Source: Naegleria gruberi
Lineage: Eukaryota
Length of the DNA stretch: 64,000 nt
Assembly (NCBI GenBank): GCA_000004985.1
Contig: GG738855.1
Strand: one strand, 5' to 3'
Below are positions 30,486 through 52,670 of this stretch, one piece after another. Both the position numbers and the translations under genes were made by a program. Numbering within the stretch: the stretch's first letter is position 1; every line of letters begins with the position of its first letter. A model generated the notes under the pieces. The model saw nothing but the letters and a program-made list of their open reading frames with translations, did no database searches and was not told where the DNA came from.

Positions 30486-30558
30486 GCTGGCGTAGCTCAG
30501 TCGGTAGAGCGTTGGTCTAATAAGCCATTGGTCGCCGGTTCGATCCCGTCCGTCAGCA
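30486..30558 (+). tRNA. tRNA-Ile (anticodon AAT)
   Basis: GCTGGCG-TA-GCTC-AGTCGGTA-GAGC-G-TTGGT-CTAATAA-GCCAT-TGGTC-GCCGG-TTCGATC-CCGTC-CGTCAGC-A. 7-bp acceptor stem with one G-U. Anticodon loop CTAATAA as in eukaryotic tRNA-Ile(AAU). T-loop TTCGATC. By my folding, one mismatch each in the anticodon stem (T27-T43) and the T stem (C50-T64). Confidence 0.85.
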
Positions 30559-30741: not shown

Positions 30742-31929
30742 ATGAATAGACAGGCACAAATTGCCCACCACAATAGTGGTCTTGATGTGATTACCATGTT
30801 GACCAACTTGAATTTAAAGCCTAGTACTGAATCTATAATAATTTATTTATCTGCTGTTCTTTTTTCTGTGATTGGAACCTTGTTGATCCCTGGCAAGTGG
30901 GTTCCGGGAGCTCCACTCAAGGATAATTCTAGAGTTTATTATAAAACCAATGGATTGTTGGTTGTTCTTGTTGGAAGTTTAATTTATGGAGCATTGTGTT
31001 ATACTAATTTCCAATTTGCTGGTCAAGCTATCTACACTTTGATCTGTAATAGTTTTGGTGAATTATTGACAGTCAGTTTGGTATTCAGTATCTTGTTGAC
31101 TACTTTATTATATTTGAGAGGTTTATTTATTATTCCAGAGAAGGAAAGAAACTTCCTTTATCCAAAGTGGAACATTCCAATGAATTTTTGGTGTGGTGTT
31201 GAATTGAATCCACACTTTTTCGGATTTGAAATTAAGGAATTCTCATATAGACCTGCATTCTTGATGATGTCAGTTTTAAATTTGAGTTATGCTTTTGAAC
31301 AATATCGTCTTTATGGAGCTCTTTCAACAAATTTAGTGACATTCCAAGCTATTAGTTTCTTCTATACCATTGATGCTTTTGTCTTTGAATATGGACTTAT
31401 TTATATGTTTGATATTATTGAAGAAAACTTTGGTTTCATGTTGGTATTTGGTGATTATTTGTGGATGCCTTTTGTTTTCACTCTCCAAAACTTGTACCTT
31501 GTCAATGATTTCAATGTTAACCACACTCAAACATTTGTCAATATTGCCATCTTTATCGTTGGTTATATCATTTTCAGAGGTGCCAACAATCAAAAGTTTG
31601 TCTATCGTCAAGATCCAAAACAAGTTTGGTTGGGACTTATTGAACCAAAGACATTGGAAACTGCTAGAGATAGAAAATTATTAATTTCAGGATTCTGGGG
31701 AGTTGCCAGAAAGATCAATTATTTGGGTGATATTCTCATTGCTATTGCTCAAAGTTTACCATGTCTTCAATGTGGTTACTTATTACCATGGTTGTATCCA
31801 ATTTACTTGACTGCTCTTCTCTTCCACAGAGCTATGAGAGACAATGAAAGATGTAAGGAAAAGTATGGTAAATTCTGGGACGAATATTGCAAGAAGGTTA
31901 AATGGGTTATGATTCCAGGTGTTTATTAA
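30742..31929 (+). CDS. Sterol reductase of the ERG4/ERG24/DHCR7/TM7SF2 family, 395 aa
   Basis: Polytopic membrane protein. Family signatures LLISGFWGVARKINYLGDIL and the C-terminal LLFHRAMRDNERCKEKYGKFWDEYCKKVKWVMIPGVY. Confidence 0.85.
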   Translation: MNRQAQIAHHNSGLDVITMLTNLNLKPSTESIIIYLSAVLFSVIGTLLIPGKWVPGAPLKDNSRVYYKTNGLLVVLVGSLIYGALCYTNFQFAGQAIYTLICNSFGELLTVSLVFSILLTTLLYLRGLFIIPEKERNFLYPKWNIPMNFWCGVELNPHFFGFEIKEFSYRPAFLMMSVLNLSYAFEQYRLYGALSTNLVTFQAISFFYTIDAFVFEYGLIYMFDIIEENFGFMLVFGDYLWMPFVFTLQNLYLVNDFNVNHTQTFVNIAIFIVGYIIFRGANNQKFVYRQDPKQVWLGLIEPKTLETARDRKLLISGFWGVARKINYLGDILIAIAQSLPCLQCGYLLPWLYPIYLTALLFHRAMRDNERCKEKYGKFWDEYCKKVKWVMIPGVY

Positions 31930-32060: not shown

Positions 32061-33093
32061 ATGTCCTTCAGAATTGCCTTGAGAAGTTTGACTTCACCTT
32101 TCGTTAAGACTTCAAAGACTACATCTTTGGTTGCTAATCAAACTAGTAAAATGTTCTATGTAGGTGTTCTCACTTATATATTTTTGTTTAGAATTATTTT
32201 TAATCCGATAATTTATTCCGGAATATCATCTTGTGGATTTGTATGATTAAATGATGATAACATGATGACTATACAATGATGAACAAATTGTTATTATTAT
32301 TAATTGTTTTTATTGTTGGAAATGTTAGCATCAATCAATGATGATGAATAACCAAGCAGCCAAGAAGGAAGAAAAGAAAAAGACTGCAGCTGTTATTTTG
32401 AGCGGATGTGGATTTATGGATGGAAGTGATGTTGTTGAATCTGTTAGTGTTATTGTTGAATTGACAAGAAAAGGAATTGTTCCAAGATTCTTCTCACCAC
32501 ACGAAGAAATTGATGAATCATACAATTATATTACAAAACAAATTGATTCAAGCGAAGAAAGATATATGCATAAGGAAAGTGCTCGTATTGCACGTGAAAA
32601 GATTTTGAGCATTGACCAACTTCGTGCTGATCAATTTGACATGTTAGTTATTCCAGGTGGTAATGGAGTTGTTCGTAATTTGTCTAATTTTGAACAAGAA
32701 GAATATAATGTTAATGAAGTTGAAGTTAATTCACATGTTGAAAAGGCCATTGTTGACTTTTTCAAACAAAAGAAACCAATTGGCTTTATGTCAAACTCTG
32801 TTATTTTAGGTGCTAAGGCTTTGGGTAAAGTTTCAGGAAAGACTGGAAATGGTATTGCTGTTGCTTTGGGTAAGACTTTGGATCGAGTTTTTGTTGAAAC
32901 TCTCATGACAAAGTTTGGTAATGAACTCTCTCAAGAAAGTGGTGATGCTGAAGTTGTTTGTACTGATTCTTCACATCGTATTGCTAGCGTTGCCAGTGTT
33001 TCTGCTGCTGGTACTGTTCAACCAAATGAAATTCATGCTGCTGCTAAGAATTTAATTGAAGAATTGATTGATTTGACCAAGAGGGAAGAATAA
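32061..33093 (+). CDS. GATD3: ES1/GATD3 (DJ-1/PfpI-class glutamine amidotransferase-like) protein with an N-terminal mitochondrial targeting peptide on a separate exon. Two exons: 32061..32159 and 32329..33093; intron 32160..32328
   Basis: Exon 1 MSFRIALRSLTSPFVKTSKTTSLVANQTSKMFY is an amphipathic R/S/T-rich presequence with no acidic residues, ending at TAT|GTAGGT. The acceptor GTTAG|CAT is in frame with HQSMMMNN.... The body matches human ES1 closely: AAVILSGCGFMDGSD, ESARIAREKI, LVIPGGNGVVRNLSNF, KPIGFMSNSVIL. Confidence 0.8.
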
Positions 33094-33295: not shown

Positions 33296-34420
33296 ATGCT
33301 CTCAACCACCTCTCAGATTGACAAAGATAATGATAGTGGTGATGAATCGGAAGGCTCCTCCGAATTATTTAAAGGCTACATTAAAATTGATTCATCTAAC
33401 AAACATTGGGATATGGATCAAAAGCAAACTAAACTATTCAAGAAGGTCAAATGGGTCGCCACAGAAAAGGTTCATGGAGCTAATTTCTGCTTTTTTATGA
33501 ATGAAGATTTGGGTGGAAATATTCATATTGAATGTGCAAAGAGGAAATCAATTTTAAGTGAAAATGATCAATTCTTTTATTTTCAAAAATTGAAAGAGAG
33601 ATTAACAAGTAAATTGGAAAATATATTCAGAATGGTCAAGACAAATTATCCAGATCTGATTCATGTTTATTTATTTGGTGAAATATTTGGTGGATTTTAT
33701 CCAAATATGCCAAAACTAGAAGGAATTGAACAACCAGTTCAAACAGGTATATGGTATACAAATGATATTGAATTTTATGCATTTGATATTGCAATTCAAA
33801 AGAGTGATTTGATTCAAATTTATTTAGATTACGAAGTAACATTGGAAATATTCTCAAAAAGTCAACTTTTATATGCAGAACCTTTATTAATTGCAAGTTA
33901 TGAAGAATGTATGGATATGGATGTTAAATTTGACTCGAAACTTCCTAAAAAATTAGGAATGCCATCACTTAATGAATCAAATTATGCTGAAGGTGTTGTG
34001 ATAAAACCAATGAAAGAAATTAACATTTCTAAAAAAGGAAAATTAGAACGAGCAATAATCAAGAGGAAAATTCAAGAATTTTCAGAAAAGAAATATGAAC
34101 AAGCTGTTAAATGGTCAACTCCAACCTCCAATTCATCATCAAATTCCATTGATGAATTAGAAGTTATCAAATATGAAGCATTGGCTTGCATTACAGAAAA
34201 TCGATTGAATAATGCAATTTCTAAAATTGGAAATATCGACACCAAAAACAAAGTACAAATGAATCAACTACTCCAGGCCTATATTCAAGATGTATTTGAT
34301 GAATTGAATGAATCAGGATTTCAAATATCCTCTTCACAAAAATCACAACTTGAAGAAGTAATTACTTTGGAATCAAAAAAGATTATTTTCCAATATTTTA
34401 AAAAACTTCAATCCAAGTAA
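33296..34420 (+). CDS. ATP-dependent RNA ligase of the Rnl2 family (T4 Rnl2 / kinetoplastid REL-like), about 375 aa
   Basis: Nucleotidyltransferase motif I ATEKVHGAN (KxHGxN, lysine adenylylation site, Rnl2-type), motif III YLFGEIFGG, motif IV EGVVIKP, motif V AIIKRK. The track ORF starts at a non-ATG codon at 33263; the first ATG is 33296. Confidence 0.7.
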   Translation: MLSTTSQIDKDNDSGDESEGSSELFKGYIKIDSSNKHWDMDQKQTKLFKKVKWVATEKVHGANFCFFMNEDLGGNIHIECAKRKSILSENDQFFYFQKLKERLTSKLENIFRMVKTNYPDLIHVYLFGEIFGGFYPNMPKLEGIEQPVQTGIWYTNDIEFYAFDIAIQKSDLIQIYLDYEVTLEIFSKSQLLYAEPLLIASYEECMDMDVKFDSKLPKKLGMPSLNESNYAEGVVIKPMKEINISKKGKLERAIIKRKIQEFSEKKYEQAVKWSTPTSNSSSNSIDELEVIKYEALACITENRLNNAISKIGNIDTKNKVQMNQLLQAYIQDVFDELNESGFQISSSQKSQLEEVITLESKKIIFQYFKKLQSK

Positions 34421-34510: not shown

Positions 34511-35707
34511 ATGGAACAACACGATGATGAAGATGCAAAGATTCGTATTGGGGAAAATAATATGTTAAATCCCTTCTCAATTCTTCCACAAGATTTATTC
34601 TATGAAATTTTACCATTTTTATCTCCGATAGAGGTTTTGCTAACTTTTCGATTAATTTTTAAAAATCATCAATTTATTTCCAAACATTTATTCGAATATT
34701 ATAATGAAAAAACAAGATTATTGGATAGGCTGAAAATATCGGATCATATTAAACAGGAGAATAAGAATTTGTTGGAGTGTTTTGATGAATTTCTAAATTT
34801 GGAAAGCGATAAATATTTGAGGAGAAAATTTATTAAATTTGCATTTAGATATGAAATTTATGAATTTTCTAAAAGAGTTTACAATAGTAGAAAACAGAGC
34901 ACGGATTTAGACTTTTGTAATGAGATGGAATGGATTGAAAATGATATTAAATGTTACAATAATTTATTTCAATATGCGAGAAGAAAATGTAACCAAGAGG
35001 AAGAAGAAATTAACAAAGAAGACAATAATTATATTATTAATACCGAACAAAAGAAATCTGATGGATTATTTTCAAGTATTTTAAAGTTTTTTACTAATTT
35101 TGGAATTACACCTCCTGAAACCGAACCCACAAGTAGTACTCACAAACCTACTTGTGAATCGTCAAAATATGGAAATAACGATTACATAGTGAAAGTATTA
35201 CTAGAAGGATTTTCTGGCAGTTCAAAACACAAATTCCGTAATTATATTATTCAAAATTCTTCAAAGTTTGAAGATTATAGACATTTTGAGGATTTCTCTA
35301 CGAAAACTTATTATTTTGGAAATCTCCAGTCTAAGCTACAGTTGTGGAATATTTCAGTGTATAAATTTAATAGCCTCATTTCAGCATATTATAGAGGTAG
35401 TTTTCTAGTAGTGCTCATTGTTGATCCATTTGATGATCGGGAATTGGAGGGATTAAGTGAAAAGAAAAAATTAATTCTTGAAAATATTTCAAAAGAAGCA
35501 CAAATAGTTCTTGTAACAAAGAAAGAATGGGAAAATGGAAATAAGAGACTTCTTTCGAATGATAATGCTGATTTCATGGCATTTGATGAATTTAATAGTT
35601 TTCATATTGATATTTCAGACCCTTATGATATTGATAGCCCTCAATGTATTGTGCTTTATGCAATGTTATTGAAATATATCATTGCATACCAATTTGAAAC
35701 TAAATGA
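34511..35707 (+). CDS. F-box-like N-terminus fused to a degenerate Ras/Rab-like (pseudo-GTPase) domain, about 398 aa
   Basis: LPQDLFYEILPFLSPIEVLLTFRLIFKNHQF is F-box-like. C-terminal Ras fold with decayed motifs: P-loop VKVLLEGFSGSSKHK, switch II LWNISVYKF, VLIVDPFD, NKxD position LVTKKEW. First ATG at 34511 (MEQHDDED). Confidence 0.6.
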   Translation: MEQHDDEDAKIRIGENNMLNPFSILPQDLFYEILPFLSPIEVLLTFRLIFKNHQFISKHLFEYYNEKTRLLDRLKISDHIKQENKNLLECFDEFLNLESDKYLRRKFIKFAFRYEIYEFSKRVYNSRKQSTDLDFCNEMEWIENDIKCYNNLFQYARRKCNQEEEEINKEDNNYIINTEQKKSDGLFSSILKFFTNFGITPPETEPTSSTHKPTCESSKYGNNDYIVKVLLEGFSGSSKHKFRNYIIQNSSKFEDYRHFEDFSTKTYYFGNLQSKLQLWNISVYKFNSLISAYYRGSFLVVLIVDPFDDRELEGLSEKKKLILENISKEAQIVLVTKKEWENGNKRLLSNDNADFMAFDEFNSFHIDISDPYDIDSPQCIVLYAMLLKYIIAYQFETK

Positions 35708-35752: not shown

Positions 35753-38474
35753 CTAATTGAGAGCAAAACCTCCTCCTAAATGTACCCTAGTTCCTTCTCC
35801 AGGAGTAACTTTGTAAGATGGTTCTCCGGCCATTTCCTCACCTCCTAAAGTTTGTGATTGAGATCGTTCCTTTTCCAAGTAGAAATCCTTCTTTGTTTGT
35901 AAGAATTTCTTCTTGGTATCTTTGAGTTCTCTGTTAAGTCTTTCCTTTTCATACTCTTGTTGTTTATCCTTGTATTGTAAAAAGTTAAGTTCAGAAGCAA
36001 GAGATTGAATTTGAGAATTCTTCTTTCTCAAAGTCTCTTGATAAATATTAAGCTGTTCTGCAACTTCTGGACCTGGTTGTCTTGAAAGGATAGCCTTGAG
36101 CTTTTTGTTCATTTCCTCCTTTTCTTGAACAATTAAATCCTTTTCCATAACTTCCTCAGTTTTGGCAATCAATCTCTTTTGGAGCGTTTGGGTTTTAAGA
36201 ACAAGTTCATATTGTGTAGGATCGCTTCCTTCTAACTTTCTCCATCTGTGAACGTTCATTGGATTTTGAAGTTCTTCTGAGAGAGCTTTGACCTTGTTTC
36301 TTTCTTCGAGTAATTGTTTCTTCAACTCATGATTCTCTCTTTGGAATTCCTTAATCTTGTAAATGTGCTTCTTCAAGACTTGTAATTGTCTTGTGAGATC
36401 TTTGATTTTCAGTTTGAGAATCTTGATGTCACCCAACCGTTCTCTATATTGAATAGCTCCCTTGTCTAGTGTACTGTTTTGAAGTTGAATCTTTTCATAG
36501 AGGAGTGCAATTTCGTCGTTTCTTCTAATCAACTGAGTACCTAGAACATCTCTTTCACTAACAACAGCATCATAGTCCTTTTGTTGTTTTCTTCTTTCAT
36601 TATCAGCTTGCTTAATGATTTGAGTGAGCCTATAGTTTTCAGACTCGTGAGATTTGATGATTCTTTCCTGTTCCTTTTGCTTTTCTTCCAACAATTTAAT
36701 TTCTTCCTTCATCTTTTCCTTCTTCTTCAGGATTTGTTTAGCATTGTATGTTTCATCAACGAGAGCCTTTTCTCTACTGGTAATTTCATCCTTAAGTTGA
36801 GTAATTTGTTGTTCCATAATCTTGAACTGTTTCTTCATTTCTTCTGCCTCTTCGTGAGCCGCAATAAGAGCCTTACTCTTAGTGTTTCTTTCGCTTCTCA
36901 CTGATTCATATAGAGATTGTTGAGTCTTCAATTTTTCTTGAAGTTCAATAATCTTCTTTTGAAGCTCATTCAATTCAACAGTCTTGATTCTTACTTCTTC
37001 CAGAGCTTGTCTGTATTTCAGGTCAGAATCTGAAGCCTCCGAAGCATATCTTTCTCTTTCCTTCTCCAGTGTGTAGGTAAGTTGTCTGTACTTTTCTGTT
37101 TGCTTCCTTTCAGCAACAATTTCAGCTTTCAATACCTTTGAATTTCCTTCCAGAATTTTAATGTTATCCTGTTTCTTAGTCTTTTCCTTTTTCATGAGAA
37201 CCAAACTCTTACTGAGGTAATTTCTTTCTGCTTTGATTTTTTCTCCAGCTTCCAATTGTTGATCTTTTTGATTATTTAATTCCTCTATGACCTTGTTCAA
37301 ATGGATAATTTCTTGATTGAGAGATTCTTTAGATCTTTCAATTTCTTCCTTTTCATTTTCAACAATCTTCTTCTTTTGTTGGAGAGTTTGATAGCTTTGA
37401 TGCCATTGATTCTTTTCATCAATAACTTCTTTAACTTTTGTTTCCAACAACTTCTTTTCGAAATTCAATGTTTGATCGTTAGCCTTCAACCTAGAAACTT
37501 CAGCAATTAGTCCAACTCTTTCCTTTTCATCTGTATCAATGGTAGACTTGTATTGCTCTATTCTCTTTTGGAGAGAATTAATAGTTTGTTCCATATCCTT
37601 GATAACCTTTTCCGAATCTGTCACTCTTGTTTGTTCCTTCTTAATATTCTCATCTTTCTTTAAGAGTTCTTGAGCTTTAGCTGTGAGAAGTTGTTTCGAT
37701 TCTTTAAGTTCCTTTTCTGATTTTTCCTTTTGCTTGATTGTTTGATCTAACTTGTTCTTTGTTTCGTTGAGCTGTTCATTGATACTTTCAATAACAGTTA
37801 GCAATTTCTTCTTTTCTTGATTTACATCATTGATCTGTAAGAATAGTAGGTTATTAGAATTAATACTAGTACAATTTTTTGAAACTAACCTGAATTTGCA
37901 TATTCGATAATTCATTGTTAAGGGAAATTACTTGAGCATTTTTCATTTCCTTTTCTCTGGCAAGCTCCTTTTTTACCTTTTCCAACTCTGGTGCAGAGGC
38001 ATCTTGAACTGTATTACCGGTTCCTTGATTTGCAATTTTTGTCAGCTCCGAAATTTCTTTGGTAAGTTTTTGAACAGTTTCCTTAGCTTTGGCTTCTTTT
38101 TCATGTGATGCGTTTACTAGTTTCCATGCTTTATCAATTTCCTTTTTTAAAATTGCGATGGTGTTTTGGTCTTCCTTAGATAAATTAATTGCTGTTTGTA
38201 CCTTGATGGCATTTGCTACTATTTGTTGAGTAAGTTCCTCACATCTCTTCATAAGTCTCTTCTCATTTTCGTGACATCTCAATAAATTACGATGTAATTT
38301 TTCATATTCAATCCTAAAATTTTCCAAATGATCTTTTCCAGCCAATTCCATCAAAACTTCTTGAAAATCTCTTTCAAGTGTTTCAAAGGCTGTTTTGGTC
38401 AAACTAAGGACCATCTTTTCTTGATCATTCTCCTTTCCATCTCCTTGTTGGTTGGTCGAACCATCTGATGACAT
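35753..38474 (-). CDS. Long coiled-coil protein, about 915 aa. Two exons: 37890..38474 and 35753..37834; intron 37835..37889
   Basis: Heptad-rich E/K/Q/L sequence throughout. Donor CAG|GTTAGT and acceptor CTTACAG|ATC join ...NMQIQ|INDVNQEKKK in frame. Confidence 0.75.
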
Positions 38475-38791
38475 TTTTTAAAACTATTTTAAAGTAGTTT
38501 TTGGCGCGAAAAATTACAGTTTTATCTGTTGGAGCTTCTACAACACTCAAGAAGAAGAATAACAACCAACACGAATAATACCACGATATGTAATTTTAAT
38601 AAGTCAGCCATGACATAATTTCATCATCAGCAAACATTTAATAATAATCAAGCCTCCACAAGAAACTGAATATAAAACCGTAGTGATAAAGAACAATAAC
38701 TTGAGTTACAAAGATACATGTTATGAATCAATACACCCAAAACACCAAATACTATTAATAAATTAATTGTACATTGTTAGGCGGCAAAAAA

Positions 38792-41553
38792 ATGAGTAAA
38801 TCAGAAGGCTCTGACACAATCCAAGTCTATTGTCGTATTAGACCAGTGAGTGAGAGTCATTGCCAATATTCAATAGAACAAACATTTGATAATGCAGTAC
38901 TACATTTTAAAAAACCAAGATCGGATGAAGCAGGATATATTAATAATACAATTGAAAATTATGAATATAAATACACCGGAATATTTGATCAACAAGTGGA
39001 TCAAGATGAAATATTTGATAGATGTGCTAAGAAATGTGTTCTTAGTGCTTTAGAAGGATATAACTCAACAATTTTTGCTTATGGTCAGTCTGGAAGTGGT
39101 AAAACTTATACAATGACTGGTGGAGATGGAAGCTATGAAAAAAGAGGTATCATTCCTAGAGCTATTTCACTTCTTTTTGAGGAATCGTCGAATGAAGGAA
39201 AACGAGATCGAGAATATACATTTTCAGTTTCATATATGGAAATTTATAAAGGATTTGGATATGATTTATTGAATGATAAAAGAGATTTAATGGATATTAA
39301 GGAATTACCGTAAGTTTAAAATGATGAGGAAATATATTAAAGAAATAATTTAGGAAAGTATCGGCTAGAATTGATACAAACGGAGCTGTTGTTTTCAAAA
39401 ATATTCAAACCTTTCCAACTAAAACAGAAGAGGATGCTTTGGATAAATTATTTATTGGTGATAAAAACAGAGTGTTGAGGTAAGAGATTTAATTTTAGTT
39501 TTGAATTTATTCATTCATTTTCAGTGAAACTATGCTCAATGAGTCCTCTACTCGTTCTCACTGTATATTTACTGTTAATATTGAATCAAAGGAACCTGGA
39601 TCATCAGTTGTAAAATCCTCAAAACTTCACATGGTAGATTTGGCCGGTAGCGAACGGCCTAGTAAGACAAATTCAACAGGCAAAACTCTGGAAGAAGCCA
39701 AGAGTATCAACTTGTCTCTGTATTTTTTGGAACGTTTTATTATGAGTATCAGTGAAGGTAATGACCACATTCCTTGGAGAGATTCATTAATCACCACTGT
39801 CCTTAAAGATAGTATTGGTGGTAATTGTAAAACTATTATGATTTCGACGATTAATCCTTCATATAGACACTTGTCGGAATCTGTTTCAACATGTAAATTT
39901 TCAATGAGAGTAGCTAGCATTAAACAAAATGCTGTCATTAACGAGAAAGTCGATCCATATGTTCAAATTAGAAAACTGAAAAAGAAAGTTGAGGAATTGG
40001 AGGAAGAACTGAAATATTATAGAGGTGAAGGGCAGAAAAGAGAAGCACTGGATGGAAACGAAAAAGCAATTATTAAGGAGAGAGTGGATGAATTTTTGGA
40101 TGATTTGGATAGAGACAGTTCTCTGAATTTGGGAGGAGACCATTTGAGAATTAGGGAGGCCTTCTTGGTTTTAAAATCCTATGTTTTGGATCTCAGGAAA
40201 AGGCCAAAGGAAGCTACAGCGTCGAAAGAGAAACCAGTACCTCAAAAAACGAAACCTCAGCCAATTCAGCAAGCCCCTCCACAACAACAAGTTGCTCTCT
40301 CAGAAGATATCCAAGAGAAGCTCAAAAACTTATCGGTTGCCATTGAGCTCAGAGATATTGAAATTGATATCCTTGTCTCCATGTTAAATAAGAAACAAAA
40401 GAACATGTCTGAAGTATCGATACAGACAGAAATTAGCCCATCGAGTCAAATTGTTACAACCCTTCCACCACCATCACCCAAGAGATCAATGCTTCATACT
40501 TTCACAAACGGAAATACATCTTCTATGGAATCAATAGCAAGTATGCATAGAAGTGTAGAACGAAAACCTATTCAAGATATTGTGACAAAAGAAGTTATTA
40601 AGGAAAGAATTCGAGAGAAGGAAAAATCCATTCTTTCCCAAACAGGTGATAATGCACCAAAATTCTCCAATGAAAAGATTGCCATCCTAGCCGATGCAAC
40701 TGGAATGAGGAGAAGAGCAGAAGCGTTCGAGTTATTTAGACAAAAATATAGAAATTACAATGTCATTGAAAAGAACAAGGAAGCTTTGGGAGAAAAGATT
40801 GCCTTTGCAAAGGAGATGGCTAGAGATATCAATGATAAGAGATCTGTCATTGAAGTGTTAAAGAACAGACTCATTCAACTAAGAACTGAAAGAGCTGCTC
40901 AAAATCTTGTAAATAAGAATGCTGAAACAGATGAAGAATTCCCAGAAGAAATTGAACTTAAAAAAGAGTTGTTAGCTGAAAAGGATAGACATCAAGATCA
41001 ATGTAATCAACTCAAGGAATTAAAGAAGGAAATTGAACACTTGAAGAGAGTATTGGAAATGAGCAGAGTGAGACTTCAACAAGATTTTGAAAATTGGTAC
41101 AAGACAACTAATCCATACCCAGAAGAAGATTCACCAGAAGAATCCATATCCTCTCAAGTTTCTGCAACAATACGAAGTAATATTTCACAACAGTATAGTA
41201 ATAGCAGTATTCCTGTTTCTACACTCAGTTTTGATTCCTCCTCTTCTCCAATATCTTCAACTCTTTCCACAACTACCTCCTCCTCTTCTAGGCCAACTGT
41301 AAAACAAGCTTGGGGAGTTGATAGTATTTCACCTAAAAACAATGTCAGCTCTAATTTAATGACACTCCGAAACAATAATCAACTACCACCACAGCAACAG
41401 CAACAAGGATTTAGTGAAGACAATCCATTCTTTAAGAAACTGAAAGAACATGTTGAACAGTCCTCAACTCTCTCAAGTGCAGCTGTTAATTCATCTGCCA
41501 ATACTAATTCCTCAAAGAGAGTTTCACTTCTCCAACAAGCTTACAAACTTTAA
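38792..41553 (+). CDS. Kinesin-like motor protein (N-terminal motor, C-terminal coiled coil and S-rich tail). Three exons: 38792..39309, 39352..39479, 39525..41553
   Basis: Motor motifs IQVYCRIRP, P-loop GQSGSGKTYTM, SSRSH (exon 3), LAGSER, HIPWRDSLITTVLKDSIGGN. Introns 39310..39351 (GTAAGT..TTTAG) and 39480..39524 (GTAAGA..TTTTCAG). A small 128-nt middle exon encodes ...NGAVVFKNIQTFP.... Confidence 0.85.
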
Positions 41554-42816: not shown

Positions 42817-44253
42817 ATGCTAAATCCCAACCAAACGATTGGAAGAAGAACACCCTCCATCATCACACCCTCTGCATCATTTCAAGATATATCAGAGTTA
42901 CGGAATCAAGAAGAAGAACATGATTTTGAAATTTTGACAACTAGCAATGCAAATTCATCAAATCAAAAATTACATTTTAAAATTATTGTATTAGGAGATT
43001 GTGAATGCGGAAAAACGAATTTAATTAATCGATATATATCAAATTCATATGAAAGAAAGCATGTGCCAACTGTCATTGAATCTTATTCGACAAATGTCAG
43101 CAGTAATGGACAAGATTTTCATATAGAATTGTGGGAATTGAGTAGTTTAAAGAATTATGATGAACTGAGACCGCTTTCTTATTCAAATGTTGATTTATTT
43201 TTTCTATGTTTTGACATTTCAAAACCTTCAACTTTACAATCAATTAAAAAGAAATGGATTCCAGAAATTCAGAAATATTCACCAGATGCTTCATTTTTAA
43301 TTGTTGGATGTAAATCTGATCTAAGAAGAAAATATAGACTTTCCCTAAATGCAAATAGTTTAGAACAAATGAAAGAATTGGACGAATTGACTAGTAGCGA
43401 TGTAGGATCTGAATTTTCACCTTCTAGTTCTAGAACTAGTTCAAATGCTAATTCTAGAAGTAATTTTAGTTCACCAATGCAATCTCCTATTCGTGATTCA
43501 AGTCATTATCACCAACCGTTGGGATATTCAGCAAGTAGTGGTGGTGGATTTGCTCATCACGATCCACGTAGAGATTCTCATATTAGTATAAGTAGTAGTT
43601 TGAGTTCGACGAGTAGTAATAGTCAAACAAAATCTACTAGTAGTTCATCATTTAAATTTAAGAGAAATATTGGGAGTGTTCTATTGAGTGCTATTGGAAA
43701 GAGTGGTTCGAAACAACAACTCACCGACGCACAATCATCACCAATAAGTGATACTTTTGAATCTGCTTCACCACAACAACAGTCAACTATGAATACAAGT
43801 CAGAATAGTGGTGCTAGTAGTTCTACATCATTTGTTTTGGAAATTTCAGATATTGAACTAACAGTTCCACAAAATTCTCCAAAAACTGCTAGGTCTAGAG
43901 GTAAATCAACAACTGCACGATCCAGGTCAATGCCAACCAATGATTGGAAGGACTATATTGATTCTAGAAAATCAGTAGCAACTCCTAGCACTCCAATTGA
44001 TGAAAATTCATTTAAAACACCAAGAGAAACATTCATGGAACAAGATTGTGATAATTCACCACGAGATAATTCAATCGCTGAAAATTGTGTAACATTTGTA
44101 GAAGCTAGGAGATTTGCAACCAAGGTTGGTGCTTGTTGCTATATTGAATGCAGTGCCAAAACCACTCTAGATTTCAAGTCAGTTATCAATGATGGTTTTA
44201 CTCAATTCTTGGAAAATAGAACAAAACGAAAGAAATCTTGCTTAATAATGTAA
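42817..44253 (+). CDS. Atypical Rho-family small GTPase, 478 aa, with degenerate catalytic motifs, a long Ser-rich C-terminal extension and a C-terminal CAAX box (CLIM)
   Basis: Rho-like core KIIVLGDCECGKTNLINRY, PTVIESY, ELRPLSYSNVDLFFLCFDIS, KKKWIPEIQ, LIVGCKSDL. The G3 motif is ELWELSSLKNY instead of LWDTAGQE (no catalytic Gln), and G4 is VGCKSD. Ends ...KKSCLIM*. Confidence 0.75.
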   Translation: MLNPNQTIGRRTPSIITPSASFQDISELRNQEEEHDFEILTTSNANSSNQKLHFKIIVLGDCECGKTNLINRYISNSYERKHVPTVIESYSTNVSSNGQDFHIELWELSSLKNYDELRPLSYSNVDLFFLCFDISKPSTLQSIKKKWIPEIQKYSPDASFLIVGCKSDLRRKYRLSLNANSLEQMKELDELTSSDVGSEFSPSSSRTSSNANSRSNFSSPMQSPIRDSSHYHQPLGYSASSGGGFAHHDPRRDSHISISSSLSSTSSNSQTKSTSSSSFKFKRNIGSVLLSAIGKSGSKQQLTDAQSSPISDTFESASPQQQSTMNTSQNSGASSSTSFVLEISDIELTVPQNSPKTARSRGKSTTARSRSMPTNDWKDYIDSRKSVATPSTPIDENSFKTPRETFMEQDCDNSPRDNSIAENCVTFVEARRFATKVGACCYIECSAKTTLDFKSVINDGFTQFLENRTKRKKSCLIM

Positions 44254-44337: not shown

Positions 44338-46005
44338 TTATTTCATACTTTTTAATAGTTCATGAATGGAAGGAAGAGCAGATACTTGATTAGTTGATGG
44401 TGATGATTGATTCAGTGGGGAAGGTGGTGGTTGCATTCGCATCATCATGTTTGCTGAAGAAGTTGTGTTGGTTGGTGATTGTCTATTATTGTGAGATAAA
44501 GGAGTTGAATCACTAGAACTACTTCTTGAATAATTCTCCAAAGATGAGAAGGAAGTTGTAGAATAAATATTATTACTACCTGAATGAGCTAGTTGCATAG
44601 ATTGGTCAGCTGCACGTGGAATTTGGAATTGACCATTATTAACAGTTTGAATGTATGGATTGGATTTAAGTGAGGCAGGTGAGGATGAATTGAGTAGTGG
44701 TTGAGCTGGTGGTGTTGAAACATAACTAGATTGTGGTGAAACTTCACTACAATTCTGAGAGGAATAAGATGAAGATAAAAGAGATGAATCAACTCTTTTA
44801 ACTCTTTTAGCATTGTCAATATTGCTTTCATGTTCTCGTTTTCTATTAATCTTAGTATCACCAGCACTGGCATCATCAGAATTAGATTCCTCCTCTTCAA
44901 TGTCACTTCCACTCGATTTTTGAAGTAAATTTCTATCCATTGATAAATTTGCTGAACCAGATGGTCGCTTGATATTTTCAATTTCCGTATCAACTTTTTC
45001 CAATTGAGTTGTAAACTTTTTCTGAGATAGTGGGTTTGATGAATTGTTTTTCATATTTTCCAGAATCTTATCCCTCTTCATGTACAAACTCTTTAATTTT
45101 CTGTACGGCCATCTGTTGATAATTTAATAAACAACAATATAGTGTGAATTAAATAATTGATAGAATTAATTATTGTCATTATTCGAAATTAATACTAACC
45201 TTGGAATATTGAAATGTCTACATAATTTCTTCATTGATGTACTACTAATTCCGATTGCTTCACATGCTTGTTCTAATTTCCAATCAAAGTAAATAGCCAA
45301 TTCTTTAAATTTAATTGTTGTCATGGTAATGTGAGCTTGATGACCATTTGTTCTTTTAGCATTCGATGATGTTGCTTCATTATTCGATGAAACTGGACTA
45401 GATTTTCCACTAGGTGTTGAAGAAGGCACATTAAATGTTGATGATTGTGGTCTTTCACTTGGAGAGCTATTTCCATGCAATGATTGTGATGCAACAACAT
45501 GTTGTTGTGGTTGTGAGAAAGAATTAGATGGACTGGTCAAATTGGATGTTGGTACAGGAGTTGGAAGTGTGGCAAAGGGTCTATTAGATGGGGGTGATGT
45601 TGGAGAGGAATTATACATGTGATTGTTATTCAATGCATGGTTTCTTGTTGAATGCATGTGATGATTGAATACTTGCTGTTGGGCACTAGGATGCACATCA
45701 TAGTTATTGTACTCGTGATGATAATGATATTCGTTATTTACATGTTGTTGCTGCTGTCTGTCCAATCTGTTGGATGATCCAGTCACGGAGGATGACTTTT
45801 CGAAAAATTGAGCTGGTTGTCTGTGGTCGAAGGACATGGAAGAATTATTGGCCATTGTGTGGTGGTGGTCATACTGTTGGCCATGTGGTGGAGATAAAGA
45901 ATACATGTGACCGTGGTCTGGAGCATGGTGATGATGTGAATTCATTCCATACCCAGATTGATGAGAATGATGATGAGGAGGTTGAATTCTCTGATACGAC
46001 ATCAT
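44338..46005 (-). CDS. RWP-RK domain transcription factor. Two exons: 45200..46005 (first ATG; possibly extends upstream) and 44338..45112; intron 45113..45199
   Basis: The RWP-RK domain spans the intron: ...ITMTTIKFKELAIYFDWKLEQACEAIGISSTSMKKLCRHFNIPR|WPYRKLKSLYMKRDK. Donor CCAAG|GTTAGT, acceptor CAACAG|A. The rest is H/Q/S/N-rich low complexity. The upstream ORF 46073..46459 is in another frame (see finding). Confidence 0.75.
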
Positions 46006-47704
46006 ATTGTTATTATCTGCACTACTAATACTTGTCAACTGTGAAGGTGATGGTAGTGAGTCGAAGGTTTCTCTAAGGGGAGGCAGACTTTCTCTGATAG
46101 AAGCTACTGCTACTGTTGGTATTGGCACTGGTAGTAGGTGGTGGTGGTTGTGATGTTGTTATATTGTCTTGGTGTGCTATAACAATTGATAAAGTTGATG
46201 ATCTTCTTAATGATTCCAAGTTATCATAAGCTTGTTCTTTTTTCTTCATAAAGTTTTCATGAGGTTGGTGTTCTGTGCTTTCTATTTGTTGGTTGTGCGT
46301 TGTGTTCGCCGACAATAATCCCTCTGCTGATGTTGTTATTAAGGCAGCGGCTTGTGTTGTTGTTGTTGGTGAATTTTGCTCACTCACAGTGTTAGGAGTT
46401 GTCTTATTAGGATCGGTTGAGGGAAAAGATTTACTTATTGTTGGTACCTCAACGCTCATGTTGCAAATTTGGAACTATTAAGAGAACGTTACAGCTGAGA
46501 TATGAAGGGATCAAACTGAAGTCAAATGAAGTCAAAGGAAGCCAGTGAAGAATGAATAAGGAAACTTGTGAAGAAGAATGAAGAGAGTGGAAATCAAACA
46601 GTACAGTCTAACTATTTTGTAGAAATGGTATGCTTTGAATTGCGAACCAAGCGAAAGTGATGTAATACAATGATTTTTTACAAATACTTTTTCTAGTAGA
46701 AGAAGAATGACGAGATTTAACTCTCAAGATAGTTTGTGTGTTCTGTTGGTTGGTGGGGAATGGTGTGTTCCTTGTTGGAATTAATTTGCTGACAGAAACA
46801 CACTGTTATGGAAGTTTAGACAATTTCTTTGAACGAATCGTTTGAGTTACAACAAGTTATTGTTGCGAGTGCCAACAACATTCTCCTCAAGGAGAAACCA
46901 ACCTCTACTCCTCCAAACAATGCAAAGTTTGCATCTCTCAAGTTTGATTTTGTTGTGTTGGTTGGATATGAGAACAAGGCGAAAAACCTTCCATCTTGCG
47001 ATAGTGTGAAACATCGAAACCTTGAAAAATTCAAAATAAAGAAAGAGTAATCCTTATTGCAAGAATTGATTGTTCTCTTAAAAAGTGCCCTTATTCTATA
47101 AAGGCAGTGACTTGGATATAATAGATAATTGATCAGGTAACAATTTTATTCCTGTAGCGAAATTGACTTCGCTCATGTCCTCAAACCTGTCAAAATTTTG
47201 ACAAAACATTTTTTGGTGGAGTTATTGAAATCCAAGGACGTTTCAACAATGGTATGCAAGACAAGTTGCTTTCCAAGTGGTCTTGCTTTGTTTGTGCACT
47301 ATGTACGAGATCTCATCAACTTCAATTATAAGATATATTGAAAATTCGATTGATGTATTTGATGTTCACAACAAACGTTGATATCAAACGATGATGACGA
47401 ATTACTTGCCAAATTGAAAGAAAATTAAATTACCAGTCTGGATGCATATTGTCTATTGTTCAATGCAACTTAAATGATTTCAGTATGAGATTACAATAGC
47501 TATGAAGGTGAACTTGGACAAATTGGTTTCTATTTTCTAGATTTTAATTATGTAAATTGTCTTTTACAAAAATGATAGATATGAACATTTGCTGTAGTTG
47601 AGGTTCATGCAAAACATCTCTAGAACAGCAAATTGTATTACAAAATTAACTATTAAATAATTAACATTAAATAGTTAATATTAAAAGTGCAATAATTTAA
47701 AAAA

Positions 47705-50863: not shown

Positions 50864-52670
50864 ATGTCTGCCTCCCACTCTGATACCACCTTATTGTCTG
50901 TTCATACTGAAGGAGAAATGAGAAGACCTTCTCAACACTGGCTTTCTCAAACTACTGAAGTTGAATTTCCAGACAAGTCTATTCATGTTTTCCCATGCCC
51001 TGTAAAGTGTTTTGATATTGCTGTATTGTTGAAGAAACATATGCATATTAAAACAGATATCTATGCTTTGGAAATTAATAATTTAATTACTTCATTGAAT
51101 GAAGTTATTTCCTTTGCCCAAGTAAAGGTTGCTCCAGTTCTTAAAGATAGTGTTGAAGGTCACGCTATCCTCAGACGTAGTTTAGTCTTTTTAGTCGGAT
51201 TGGCAACTCACTTGGAATTCCCAGAACTTTCTTTATCTGTTGAACATTCATTGAGAAGTGGTTATATGATGTAAGTTTTTAATTGTTTATTTATACTAAT
51301 CTCTGAGAAATAGTTGTGTTGATGGAAAAGATGAACTTACTAATGAACAAGTTTCTAAAGTTCAACATAGAATGGAATTATTAGTATCAAAGGATTTACC
51401 AATTTTGACACGTTATGTATCATACGAAATGGCCATGGATTTCTTCCAAAATGTTGTCAAGAGGCCATATACTGCTTCACTTATTTCTGCAAACAATGAT
51501 CCTGCTGTTCCAATTGATTATTGTGACGGAGTTGACCAACAATATTTCGATTTGCATCACAGAACTCTTGTTGCTAGGACAAGCTTTATGAAGAGTACTT
51601 TTACTTTGGAAAAATTCAAGCAAGGATTCAAGCTTTCATTCCCTAATGAACCATATGATTTCGGTCTTGAATTCAATGACGAAACACTTTCTAATGTCTA
51701 TTCCGAATATAATAACTGGGGTAGAATTACAAATACTAGATGTGTTGGTGATTTGAATCAACACGTCAATGATAATACTATCAAATGGTTCATGGCTTTG
51801 AATCATGCTTTGCATGACCAAAAGATTGTTAAAATTGCTTTGGATATTTTCTCTAGAAAGGATAAGGTTAAACTTATCTTGGCTGCTGGCCCAAGTTCAT
51901 CAGGTAAAACTACATTTGCTAAGAAATTGAGTATTCAATTGGAAATTTTGGGTATTAAGCCAGTTACTATCTCAGTTGATGACTATTATAAGCCAAACAA
52001 GGAATGTCCACTTGATGAAAACGGTAATTATGATTTTGAAACCATTGATGCTTTGAGAATTGACTTGTTGAATGACCATCTCGAATCATTGATCAAGGGT
52101 GAAGAAGTCATGTCACCAATTTTCGATTTTAGAAAGGGTGAACCAAAGGCTGTTGGTCGTAAAATTAAATGTTTACCTGGTCAAGTCTTATTGATGGAAG
52201 GTATTCACTGTCTCAATGATAAATTGACTCCAAAGATTCCATCTGAAAACAAGTTCAAGATTTTCCTTGCTCCACTTACTCAATTGAATCTTGACGAAAT
52301 GAACTTTATCAGTAATAATACTACTAGATTGTTGAGAAGAATGGTCAGAGATTTCAACTTTAGAGGTCACTCTGTTACATCAACACTTGATATGTGGCCT
52401 GCTGTTCGTAAGGCTGAACACAAGAATGTTTTCCCATTCATGAAGAATGCAGATGTTGTTTTTAATACTTCACTTGATTACGAATATTCTGTACTCAAAG
52501 TTTATGCCAAGCCTCTTTTGAGTGCTGTCAGTCCACAAAGTCCACATTACAACTCTGCAAGAGAATTGTTGGCATTCTTACGTTATTTCCATGCCATTCC
52601 AGCTGGATCCATTCCTTCTGATTCATTGCTTCGTGAATTCATTGGAGATTCCTTCTTTGATTATGAATAA
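50864..52670 (+). CDS. P-loop kinase of the uridine kinase / phosphoribulokinase (PRK) family with an N-terminal extension domain. Two exons: 50864..51270 and 51314..52670; intron 51271..51313
   Basis: Walker A LILAAGPSSSGKTTFAKKL followed by ISVDDYYK and a PRK/UK-family lid region. Donor AT|GTAAGT in phase 2; the acceptor AAATAG|T restores the frame (...SGYMI-CVDGKDELTNEQVSKVQHRMELLVSKD...). Confidence 0.8.

What the first reader, a model, noticed from the sequence alone, without database searches (positions are those of the whole stretch)
34511..35707. F-box-like motif fused to a pseudo-GTPase (degenerate Ras/Rab fold)
An N-terminal LPxDLxxEILxxL F-box-like helix is followed by unique sequence and a C-terminal small-GTPase fold. 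All nucleotide-contacting motifs are eroded: GFSGSSKHK for GxxxxGKS/T, WNISVY for WDTAGQ, TKKE for NKxD. An SCF-type substrate adaptor built on a dead GTPase scaffold would be an unusual architecture. It sits directly downstream of the RNA ligase gene.
Basis: inference. Interest (0 to 1): 0.55.

Follow-up and report, generated by a model that had tools for sequence, protein, structure and literature searches.

The report
Unannotated degenerate F-box–Rab-like gene, Naegleria
This is a real but unannotated gene of the amoeba Naegleria gruberi: a very divergent copy of an already described Naegleria-only family that joins an F-box (ubiquitin-ligase docking motif) to a Rab-like GTPase, and in this copy the GTP-binding motifs have decayed.

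Summary
Window 34511-35707 (+) is an intact 398-codon ORF. It has an N-terminal F-box-like segment, a helical linker and a C-terminal Rab fold (Sec4/Rab8 E 1.4e-10; Foldseek TM about 0.8). All five G motifs are eroded; only the P-loop lysine survives.

The window is Naegleria gruberi: three neighbouring proteins are exact matches to N. gruberi entries. The ORF is absent from a 15-billion-protein collection, so it appears unannotated.

Its relatives, at 20-29% identity across aligned family members, are Naegleria proteins with the same three-part layout. They have a Pfam-significant F-box and an intact GxxxxGKT/DxxG. Each of the three segments of the ORF matches a family profile built without it.

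The architecture is not new. Herman et al. 2021 (PMC8296547, supplement) described Naegleria-specific F-box–Rab-like clades under birth-and-death evolution and proposed GTPase-dependent ubiquitination. Other catalogued members are similarly degenerate.

The adjacency to the RNA ligase gene is not conserved in other Naegleria.

Best reading: a fast-evolving paralogue that has become a probable pseudoGTPase and may still act as an SCF adaptor. A decaying gene copy is the main rival. SCF function, nucleotide binding and expression were not tested.

The parts
34511..35707 (+). Complete intronless CDS (398 aa plus stop) of an unannotated F-box–Rab-like paralogue of Naegleria gruberi
   Evidence: ORF list and sequence. 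Coding potential and ORF-length statistics. Full-length match to a family HMM built without it, 176.6 bits. Absent from the protein collection.
34574..34696 (+). F-box-like segment (residues 22-62): FSILPQDLFYEILPFLSPIEVLLTFRLIFKNHQF. The family's VCKxWR has eroded to IFKNHQ.
   Evidence: Pfam F-box scores only 13 bits. The N-terminal 80 residues score 22.4 bits against the family HMM, with a maximum of 5.5 among 200 shuffles. A profile of family N-termini hits only F-box proteins in PDB. Three short helices are predicted at 27-36, 39-49 and 56-73, at low confidence.
34769..35101 (+). Family-specific helical linker (residues 87-197) with conserved motifs RKFIKF..R.E.YEF, W...(L/I)...F and LFSSILKFF
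   Evidence: 43.9 bits against the family HMM built without the target. Alignment. Long helices at 98-125 and 140-171, with block-mean pLDDT about 52-78. No Pfam family matches.
35102..35179 (+). Poorly conserved Ser/Thr/Pro-rich spacer (residues 198-223), predicted disordered
   Evidence: pLDDT about 30. The region is variable in length and sequence across the family.
35180..35695 (+). Rab-like G domain (residues 224-395) with the order b1-a1-b2-b3-a2-b4-a3-b5-a4-b6-a5 and no C-terminal prenylation cysteine
   Evidence: phmmer against PDB, Sec4 E 1.4e-10. AlphaFold block-mean pLDDT mostly 68-90, with dips to about 51-61. Foldseek hits Rab10/Sec4/Rab8 at E about 1e-10, target TM 0.74-0.82. 106.3 bits against the family HMM.
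35207..35230 (+). Eroded G1/P-loop GFSGSSKH. The family has GDYASGKT. The second Gly is Ser and the Mg-binding Ser/Thr is His; the Lys is kept.
   Evidence: Alignments.
35276..35299 (+). Switch I/G2 region YRHFEDFS. A 5-residue deletion relative to paralogues removes the TIG of TIGxDF, including the G2 threonine.
   Evidence: Alignments.
35345..35368 (+). Eroded G3/switch II WNISVYKF. The family has WDQCGPERF and Rabs have WDTAGQERF. Asp is Asn, the DxxG glycine is lost and there is a 1-residue deletion.
   Evidence: Alignments.
35516..35527 (+). G4 TKKE. The family has TKKD/TKTD/TKSD. The guanine-specificity Asp is Glu, or Trp in the alternative register.
   Evidence: Alignments. The register is ambiguous by one residue.
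35612..35623 (+). G5 position ISDP. The family has ITNT and Rabs have SAK.
   Evidence: Alignments.

Best explanation
The ORF is a previously unannotated, fast-evolving paralogue of the non-prenylated, Naegleria-specific F-box–Rab-like GTPase subgroup. That subgroup includes XP_002677004, XP_002669579 and XP_002670359.

The protein has three parts: an N-terminal F-box, a family-specific helical linker and a Rab-derived G domain.

Inferred mechanism for the family: the F-box docks on Skp1 of an SCF (Cul1) ubiquitin ligase. The rigid helical linker presents the Rab-like domain as the partner- or substrate-binding module, so ubiquitination is gated by the nucleotide state. This would be the SCF counterpart of Rab40–SOCS-box/Cul5 and RhoBTB/Cul3.

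In this copy the G1, G2, G3, G4 and G5 motifs are all degraded, while the fold core and linker motifs are kept. The domain most likely no longer binds GTP/Mg in the canonical way (a class-i-type pseudoGTPase). If it is functional, it acts as a constitutive, nucleotide-independent interaction module.

Its F-box is also weakened, having lost the conserved VCK-W-R, so Skp1 binding is less certain than for its paralogues.

Shown here: gene structure, family membership, fold and motif erosion. Inferred: loss of nucleotide binding, Skp1/SCF engagement and expression.
For: - **Organism.** Three neighbouring proteins are exact matches to N. gruberi NEG-M entries on one 613-kb scaffold: ERG4/24, the RNA ligase and a Ras GTPase.
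- **Full-length relatives.** HMMER over 1.84 billion representatives finds full-length relatives only among Naegleria proteins and a few unnamed environmental or run-assembly sequences. The best is XP_002677004 (E 6.6e-30, 32% identity, residues 22-392 against 13-371).
- **Domains of the relatives.** They carry Pfam F-box at 24-31 bits, above threshold, and Ras at about 75 bits.
- **Independent segment matches.** Against a family HMM built without the ORF, the three segments score 22.4, 43.9 and 106.3 bits. Shuffles score 7.5 or less.
- **F-box identity of the family N-terminus.** A profile of the family N-termini hits 26 PDB sequences at E of 1 or less, and all are F-box proteins.
- **Fold.** The AlphaFold model with the family alignment gives a canonical small-GTPase topology with G-domain block-mean pLDDT mostly about 70-90 and pTM 0.63. 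Top Foldseek hits are Rabs.
- **Selective motif loss.** Paralogues keep GxxxxGKT, TIGxDF, WDxxG and TKxD. The ORF has GFSGSSKH, a 5-residue switch-I deletion, WN-ISVYKF and TKKE. It keeps 35 of 78 family-conserved columns overall, but only 3 of the 16 in G motifs (my tally from the column list).
- **Still coding.** The ORF is intact (chance probability 2.6e-16) and coding potential is in frame for all three segments.
- **Literature.** Herman et al. 2021 describe these clades, their F-box, birth-and-death dynamics and the idea of GTPase-dependent ubiquitination. Rab40–Cul5 is an experimentally established precedent for a Rab acting as a cullin-RING substrate receptor (PMC8129794). Class-i pseudoGTPases act as pure interaction modules (PMC12490416).
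Against: - There is no evidence of transcription or translation. The gene is missing from the reference annotation and from the manually curated Ras-superfamily table of Herman et al..
- The F-box is itself degraded: Pfam gives 13 bits and the conserved Trp is replaced by His. SCF docking may therefore be lost.
- No orthologue was found in other Naegleria or in metagenomes. Purifying selection (dN/dS) could not be measured.
- The P-loop lysine is retained, so some non-canonical nucleotide or phosphate binding cannot be excluded.
- No member of the family has been studied experimentally. The SCF mechanism is an inference from domain content.
Confidence: 0.6

Rival explanations
1. The ORF is a dying gene copy. 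It is a relic of birth-and-death turnover in an expanded family, no longer under selection for function but not yet hit by a stop or frameshift.
For: - Both functional modules are eroded at once. F-box scores 13 bits against 24-31 in paralogues, and all G motifs are degraded.
- It has the lowest identities in its clade, 20-29%.
- It is unannotated.
- Herman et al. report pseudogenes and rapid turnover in exactly these clades.
- Its coding-potential score is at the low end of the window's genes: 0.25 against 0.21-0.70.
Against: - At 20-29% identity to every relative, the divergence is old. A neutral 1.2-kb sequence of 28% GC would carry stops; the chance of none is 2.6e-16.
- The losses are concentrated in the G motifs. 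Core hydrophobic residues, linker motifs and Rab-family motifs (KLQLW, YYRGS) persist.
- AlphaFold still builds a confident G domain.
Confidence: 0.25
2. The protein is still a working nucleotide-binding switch with non-canonical motifs. It might bind another nucleotide or need a partner, and it gates SCF activity like its paralogues.
For: - The P-loop Lys239 and Gly233 are retained, and the GTPase fold is preserved.
- The family as a whole already uses atypical motifs: Pro in place of the catalytic Gln, TKxD and ITNT.
Against: - The second P-loop Gly is Ser and the Mg-coordinating Ser/Thr is His.
- The switch-I threonine is deleted.
- The Asp and Gly of DxxG are both lost, with a deletion.
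- The G4 Asp is replaced.
- Loss of this combination characterises experimentally confirmed class-i pseudoGTPases (PMC5593906; PMC12490416).
Confidence: 0.08
3. The N-terminal LPxDL helix is only a look-alike. The protein, and possibly the whole subgroup, does not engage Skp1/SCF. The N-terminal extension serves another role such as dimerisation or localisation.
For: - On the ORF alone no F-box model reaches threshold.
- The F-box part of the model has pLDDT below 50.
- No experimental Skp1 interaction exists for any member.
Against: - Paralogues pass the Pfam F-box and F-box-like thresholds.
- The family N-terminal profile retrieves only F-box proteins from PDB, including FBXW7, FBXL17 and Skp2.
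- The ORF's N-terminus aligns in register with them.
Confidence: 0.07

Closest known systems
Naegleria-specific divergent Rab-like clades with an N-terminal F-box (Herman et al. 2021, BMC Biol, PMC8296547, Additional file 4 and Table S8), e.g. XP_002677004.1, XP_002669579.1, XP_002670359.1 and N. fowleri XP_044563075.1
   Same: It has the same three-part architecture and the same linker motifs. It is the same non-prenylated subgroup and the same organism. Homology is full-length.
   Different: This copy is not in their table or in any protein database. It is the most divergent of its clade. It has lost the family's GxxxxGKT, TIG, WDxxGPERF, TKxD and ITNT signatures and the F-box VCKxWR. Some listed members are partly or equally degenerate: XP_002680400, XP_002677810 and XP_002678758.
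Rab40 (Rab plus SOCS box, CRL5 substrate receptor) and RhoBTB (Rho plus BTB, Cul3)
   Same: A small-GTPase domain is fused to a cullin-RING adaptor-docking motif, so the GTPase domain becomes the recognition module of an E3 ligase (PMC8129794 and PMC10509765; RhoBTB from general knowledge).
   Different: The docking module differs (F-box to Skp1/Cul1) and is N-terminal rather than C-terminal. The G domain here is probably nucleotide-dead. Neither a SOCS box nor a BTB was detected. Function is untested.
TbFRP (FYVE–F-box–Ras-like GTPase of Euglenozoa; PMC3593210)
   Same: It is an F-box placed upstream of a Ras-superfamily GTPase domain in another discobid lineage, with a Rab-like GTPase domain.
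   Different: [quoted passage not shown] The TbFRP authors found no N. gruberi orthologue. No euglenozoan protein appeared among the relatives. The fusion is probably independent.
Class-i pseudoGTPases (p190RhoGAP pG1/pG2, AAGAB psGD, CENP-M)
   Same: They have a GTPase fold with degraded G motifs that is used as a protein-interaction scaffold (PMC5593906; PMC12490416).
   Different: They are unrelated lineages. Here the decay is recent enough that paralogues in the same genome are intact. Absence of nucleotide binding is only predicted.

Membership tests
Naegleria F-box–Rab-like subgroup (Herman et al. 2021) | Full-length homology covering the N-terminal extension, linker and G domain | tested here: met
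   phmmer covers residues 22-392 against 13-371 of XP_002677004, E 6.6e-30. A family HMM built without the target scores 22.4, 43.9 and 106.3 bits for the three segments, against 7.5 or less for shuffles.
Naegleria F-box–Rab-like subgroup (Herman et al. 2021) | Family G-motif signature (GxxxxGKTS, TIGxDF, WDQCGPERF, TKxD, ITNT) | tested here: not met
   The target has GFSGSSKH, a 5-residue deletion, WN-ISVYKF, TKKE and ISDP. This feature also fails in the listed members XP_002680400 and XP_002677810, so it is not strictly defining.
Naegleria F-box–Rab-like subgroup (Herman et al. 2021) | No C-terminal CaaX/CC prenylation motif (non-prenylated subgroup) | tested here: met
   The C-terminus is ...LLKYIIAYQFETK with no cysteine.
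F-box domain (Pfam PF00646/PF12937) | Score above the Pfam gathering threshold | tested here: not met
   13.0 bits (E 0.1) against a cutoff of 20.5 on the isolated segment, and no hit on the full protein. The paralogues P0001, P0002 and P0006 pass at 23.6-30.7 bits.
F-box domain (Pfam PF00646/PF12937) | Homology to bona fide F-boxes at profile level, with the LPxE(L/I)...IL..L core | tested here: met
   The family N-terminal profile, with the target included, hits only F-box proteins in PDB; FBXW7 scores E 3.5e-5. LP, D, L, EIL and L are retained, and the H3 VCK-W is lost.
F-box domain (Pfam PF00646/PF12937) | Binds Skp1 | not testable with these tools
   This needs a pull-down, a two-hybrid assay or complex prediction with N. 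gruberi Skp1.
Rab GTPases | Small-GTPase fold with closest similarity to Rabs | tested here: met
   Top PDB sequence hits are Sec4, Rab8, Rab3 and Rab11. Top Foldseek hits are Rab10, Sec4 and Rab8, with target TM 0.74-0.82. The RabF-type motifs KLQLW and YYRGS are retained (alignment; motif definitions from general knowledge).
Rab GTPases | Intact G1-G5 nucleotide-binding motifs | tested here: not met
   Pfam Ras scores below threshold, 16.9-19.4 against 21.6.
Rab GTPases | C-terminal prenylatable cysteines | tested here: not met
   No cysteine lies near the C-terminus.
Class-i pseudoGTPase | GTPase fold retained | tested here: met
   This is a predicted structure only.
Class-i pseudoGTPase | No nucleotide binding and no hydrolysis | not testable with these tools
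   This is inferred from motif loss only. It needs MANT-GTP, thermal-shift or HPLC assays.
TbFRP (FYVE–F-box–GTPase) | N-terminal FYVE domain | tested here: not met
   There is no FYVE hit in the target or the paralogues.
Rab40 / RhoBTB type GTPase–cullin adaptors | SOCS box or BTB domains | tested here: not met
   There are no such Pfam hits. The relationship is a functional analogy only.

The most novel reading that the evidence does not exclude
The protein is expressed and works as a nucleotide-independent SCF substrate receptor. A Rab-derived class-i pseudoGTPase would then serve as the recognition module of a cullin-RING ligase. Alternatively it could act as a Skp1-free decoy that sequesters the targets of its GTP-regulated paralogues. 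Together with its intact and half-decayed paralogues in one genome, it would give a natural series showing how a GTP-gated E3 adaptor turns into a constitutive one.
Probability: 0.25. Interest if true: 0.55.

Novelty: new member of a known kind. Interest (0 to 1): 0.3.

Why it matters
The finding adds one missing gene model to the N. gruberi Ras-superfamily inventory. It also shows that the F-box–Rab-like clades contain intact ORFs whose GTP-binding site has decayed, not only frameshifted pseudogenes.

The family is functionally unexplored. If its members really are SCF receptors, Naegleria would offer a Cul1-based parallel to Rab40/Cul5 and RhoBTB/Cul3. Canonical, hydrolysis-impaired and nucleotide-dead versions sit side by side in one genome, which would make it a convenient system for asking what nucleotide gating contributes to substrate selection.

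The apparent novelty disappears once the organism and its literature are identified.

Tried and rejected
- **Word-indexed homologue search.** With the ORF it found nothing. With the family alignment it returned only one family member. The exhaustive HMMER search was needed.
- **Single-sequence AlphaFold model.** It was useless, with pLDDT 35. The 12-sequence alignment rescued the G domain but not the F-box.
- **Exact-product contig look-ups.** N. gruberi proteins are not indexed, so local annotation could not be read directly. Annotation status was inferred from exact protein look-ups and accession order.
- **Synteny and linkage to the RNA ligase.** Rejected. Downstream of the orthologous ligase, N. 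fowleri (L003) and another Naegleria (L002) carry an unrelated 619/504-aa gene. The one metagenomic family locus, L001, has different neighbours.
- **Search for an orthologue to compute dN/dS.** The metagenome scan found none.
- **F-box–GTPase fusions outside Naegleria.** Larger hits of the HMMER search were checked. All were plain or tandem Rab predictions without an F-box.
- **Relationship to TbFRP.** It could not be tested directly because no sequence was available. There is no FYVE domain here.
- **Tandem paralogues.** None lie in the window. The Ras-family gene at 42817-44253 is unrelated to this subgroup.

Full report
**1. What is at the coordinates**

Window 34511-35707 (+) is an ATG-to-TGA ORF of 398 codons. 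It lies 91 bp downstream of an Rnl2-type RNA ligase gene (33296-34420, +). It ends 46 bp from the 3' end of a convergent CFAP58-like gene (35753-37915, -).

| Feature | Sequence | Residues |
|---|---|---|
| F-box-like helix | LPQDLFYEILPFL | 25-37 |
| G1 | GFSGSSKH | 233-240 |
| G3 | WNISVYKF | 279-286 |
| G4 | TKKE | 336-339 |

The ORF is far longer than chance allows in 28% GC DNA; the probability of no stop in 398 codons is 2.6e-16. A codon-usage log-odds model trained on 17 other ORFs of the window is positive only in this frame, at +0.25 per codon. It is positive for each of the three protein segments. The other genes score 0.21-0.70.

**2. Organism and annotation status**

The window is eukaryotic: 32% GC, with ERG4/24, CFAP58, a kinesin interrupted by an intron-like gap and one tRNA.

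Three neighbouring proteins are exact matches to Naegleria gruberi NEG-M proteins, all on one 613-kb scaffold:

| Window protein | Accession |
|---|---|
| RNA ligase | EFC47173 |
| ERG4/24 reductase | EFC47171 |
| Ras-family GTPase at 42817-44253 | EFC47176 |

The target ORF is not in the 15-billion-protein collection. This holds for the exact look-up with either of two start codons. The word-indexed search found nothing. The best hit of an exhaustive HMMER search is only 32% identical.

Only two accession numbers lie between the ligase and the Ras GTPase, and CFAP58 and the kinesin must fill them. The ORF therefore appears to be unannotated; this step is an inference. Its sequence is also absent from the manually curated Ras-superfamily table of Herman et al. 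2021.

**3. The Rab-like domain**

Pfam Ras is sub-threshold on the ORF, at 16.9-19.4 bits against a cutoff of 21.6. phmmer against PDB is significant: Sec4 at E 1.4e-10, then Rab8, Rab3, Ypt1 and Rab11.

AlphaFold2 with a 12-sequence family alignment gives pTM 0.63 and block-mean pLDDT mostly about 70-90 for residues 224-395. The model has the canonical order b1-a1-b2-b3-a2-b4-a3-b5-a4-b6-a5. Foldseek against PDB returns Rab10, Sec4 and Rab8 at E about 1e-10, with target TM-scores of 0.74-0.82. The single-sequence model was uninformative.

**4. Relatives and the F-box**

HMMER over 1.84 billion representatives finds eight specific relatives. Most are from N. gruberi, N. fowleri and N. lovaniensis. 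The remainder are unnamed environmental or run-assembly sequences.

The four longest relatives, 360-407 aa, align over most or all of the ORF. They carry Ras domains of about 72-81 bits. In three of them Pfam F-box or F-box-like scores 23.6-30.7 bits, above threshold. The fourth is an N-terminally truncated model.

Corrected models from Table S8 of Herman et al. were added. The alignment then shows a shared three-part layout:

- an F-box: LPxELIGEIL..L...EL.....VCKxWR;
- a helical linker with the motifs GRKFIKYLLRK.VYEFA, W.D.EL..LKGYF and FS.ALSFIGSMF;
- a Rab-like domain.

An HMM was built from the 11 relatives without the ORF. It matches the ORF's N-terminus at 22.4 bits, its linker at 43.9 bits and its G domain at 106.3 bits. 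No score among 200 shuffles of each segment exceeds 7.5.

A profile of the family N-termini retrieves 26 PDB sequences at E of 1 or less. Every one is an F-box protein, including FBXW7, FBXL17, FBXO44 and Skp2.

The ORF's N-terminus is therefore a homologue of a genuine F-box. On its own it scores only 13 bits in Pfam. It has IFKNHQ where the family has VCKxWR, so the conserved helix-3 tryptophan is lost.

**5. Motif erosion is secondary and selective**

| Motif | Paralogues | This ORF |
|---|---|---|
| G1 | GDYASGKT | GFSGSSKH (second Gly to Ser, Mg-ligand Ser/Thr to His, Lys kept) |
| G2 | TIGxDF | 5-residue deletion that removes TIG |
| G3 | WDQCGPERF | WN-ISVYKF (Asp and Gly of DxxG lost, 1-residue deletion) |
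| G4 | TKKD/TKTD/TKSD | TKKE |
| G5 | ITNT | ISDP |

One search lists 78 columns conserved in at least 8 of 11 relatives. By my tally from that list, the ORF keeps 35 of them. It keeps only 3 of the 16 that lie in G motifs, against 32 of the other 62.

Rab-type motifs outside the pocket persist: KLQLW, YYRGS and the hydrophobic strands.

The family consensus is itself atypical. It has Pro in place of the catalytic Gln and has no prenylation cysteines. Even the intact members may therefore be slow or non-hydrolysing, cytosolic switches; this is an inference.

Other catalogued members are also degraded: XP_002680400 (P-loop deleted), XP_002677810 (G2 and G3 lost) and XP_002678758 (WE-SGGE). Decay of the pocket is thus recurrent in this clade.

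**6. Literature**

Herman et al. 2021 (PMC8296547, Additional file 4 and Table S8) expanded the N. gruberi Rab(-like) set to nearly 90 loci. [quoted passage not shown] XP_002677004, XP_002669579, XP_002675157 and XP_002678758 are listed there.

Three other bodies of work are relevant:

- **TbFRP.** An F-box next to a Ras-like GTPase is also known from euglenozoan TbFRP (FYVE–F-box–GTPase). Its authors found no Naegleria orthologue (PMC3593210).
- **Rab40/Cul5.** This is the experimentally established case of a Rab acting as a cullin-RING receptor.
- **Class-i pseudoGTPases.** These are established interaction scaffolds.

**7. Context**

The neighbourhood is not informative. In N. fowleri (L003/L004) and another Naegleria (L002), the gene downstream of the orthologous RNA ligase is an unrelated 619/504-aa protein. 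The metagenomic family member P0006 has different neighbours. No second member of the family lies in the window. Eukaryotic gene order gives no functional link to the ligase.

**8. Interpretation**

Family membership and the fold are well supported. The most likely account is a long-branch paralogue of a lineage-specific F-box–Rab-like family whose nucleotide pocket has decayed. If it is functional, it is a nucleotide-independent interaction module tethered by a helical linker to a weakened F-box. That would make it an SCF analogue of Rab40/Cul5 locked in one state, or a decoy.

The main rival is a gene copy on its way out, which fits the birth-and-death dynamics. The old divergence combined with an intact, codon-biased ORF and the selective pattern of loss argue against long-term neutrality, but they do not exclude recent loss of function.

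Expression, Skp1 binding and nucleotide binding were not testable here.

**9. Verdict**

Novelty is limited to a new, unannotated and unusually degenerate member of a kind already described for this organism.

Noticed in passing
window 33296-34420 (+): This is an Rnl2-family RNA ligase (Pfam RNA_ligase plus T4_Rnl2_C), identical to N. gruberi XP_002679917. Outside Naegleria and Willaertia, its best relatives at 41-48% identity are bdelloid rotifers (Rotaria, Didymodactylos), many unnamed metagenomic 'Rnl2 family' proteins, cyanobacteria and Anaeramoeba. The Acanthamoeba 'RNA editing ligase' is at 37%. This is a patchy distribution suggestive of horizontal transfer.
   Followed up: partly
window 42817-44253 (+): A second Ras-superfamily gene lies 7 kb downstream. 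It is XP_002679920, 'ras family small GTPase', 478 aa, with a Ras domain at residues 55-177 and a roughly 300-residue C-terminal extension without a Pfam match. It is not a member of the F-box subgroup.
   Followed up: partly
window 35753-38474 (-): The CFAP58-like coiled-coil gene is split over two overlapping ORFs, 35753-37915 and 37866-38474. This implies a short intron or a frame change near 37866-37915.
   Followed up: no
window 38774-41553 (+): The kinesin motor domain is split between ORFs 38774-39313 and 39532-41553. This is consistent with an intron of about 200 bp. The C-terminal tail is rich in Ser and Gln runs.
   Followed up: no
window 30486-30558 (+): A tRNA-Ile (AAT) gene sits immediately upstream of, and ends about 180 bp before, the ERG4/ERG24 sterol reductase ORF at 30742-31929.
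   Followed up: no
window 32338-33093 (+): This 251-aa ORF has only weak DJ-1/PfpI and DUF5856 similarity. The exact sequence is not in the protein collection, so the reference gene model probably differs, for example in its start or an intron.
   Followed up: no
window 45166-46128 (-) and 51372-52670 (+): These are an RWP-RK domain protein (a putative transcription factor) and a phosphoribulokinase/uridine-kinase-family protein with a roughly 170-residue N-terminal extension.
   Followed up: no
Herman et al. 2021, Table S8 sequences: Several curated N. gruberi F-box–Rab-like models lack a recognisable P-loop and/or DxxG yet have open frames: XP_002680400, XP_002680417, XP_002677810 and ACER01000495.1. 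PseudoGTPase-like states seem to have arisen repeatedly in these clades, and the paper's text does not discuss this.
   Followed up: partly
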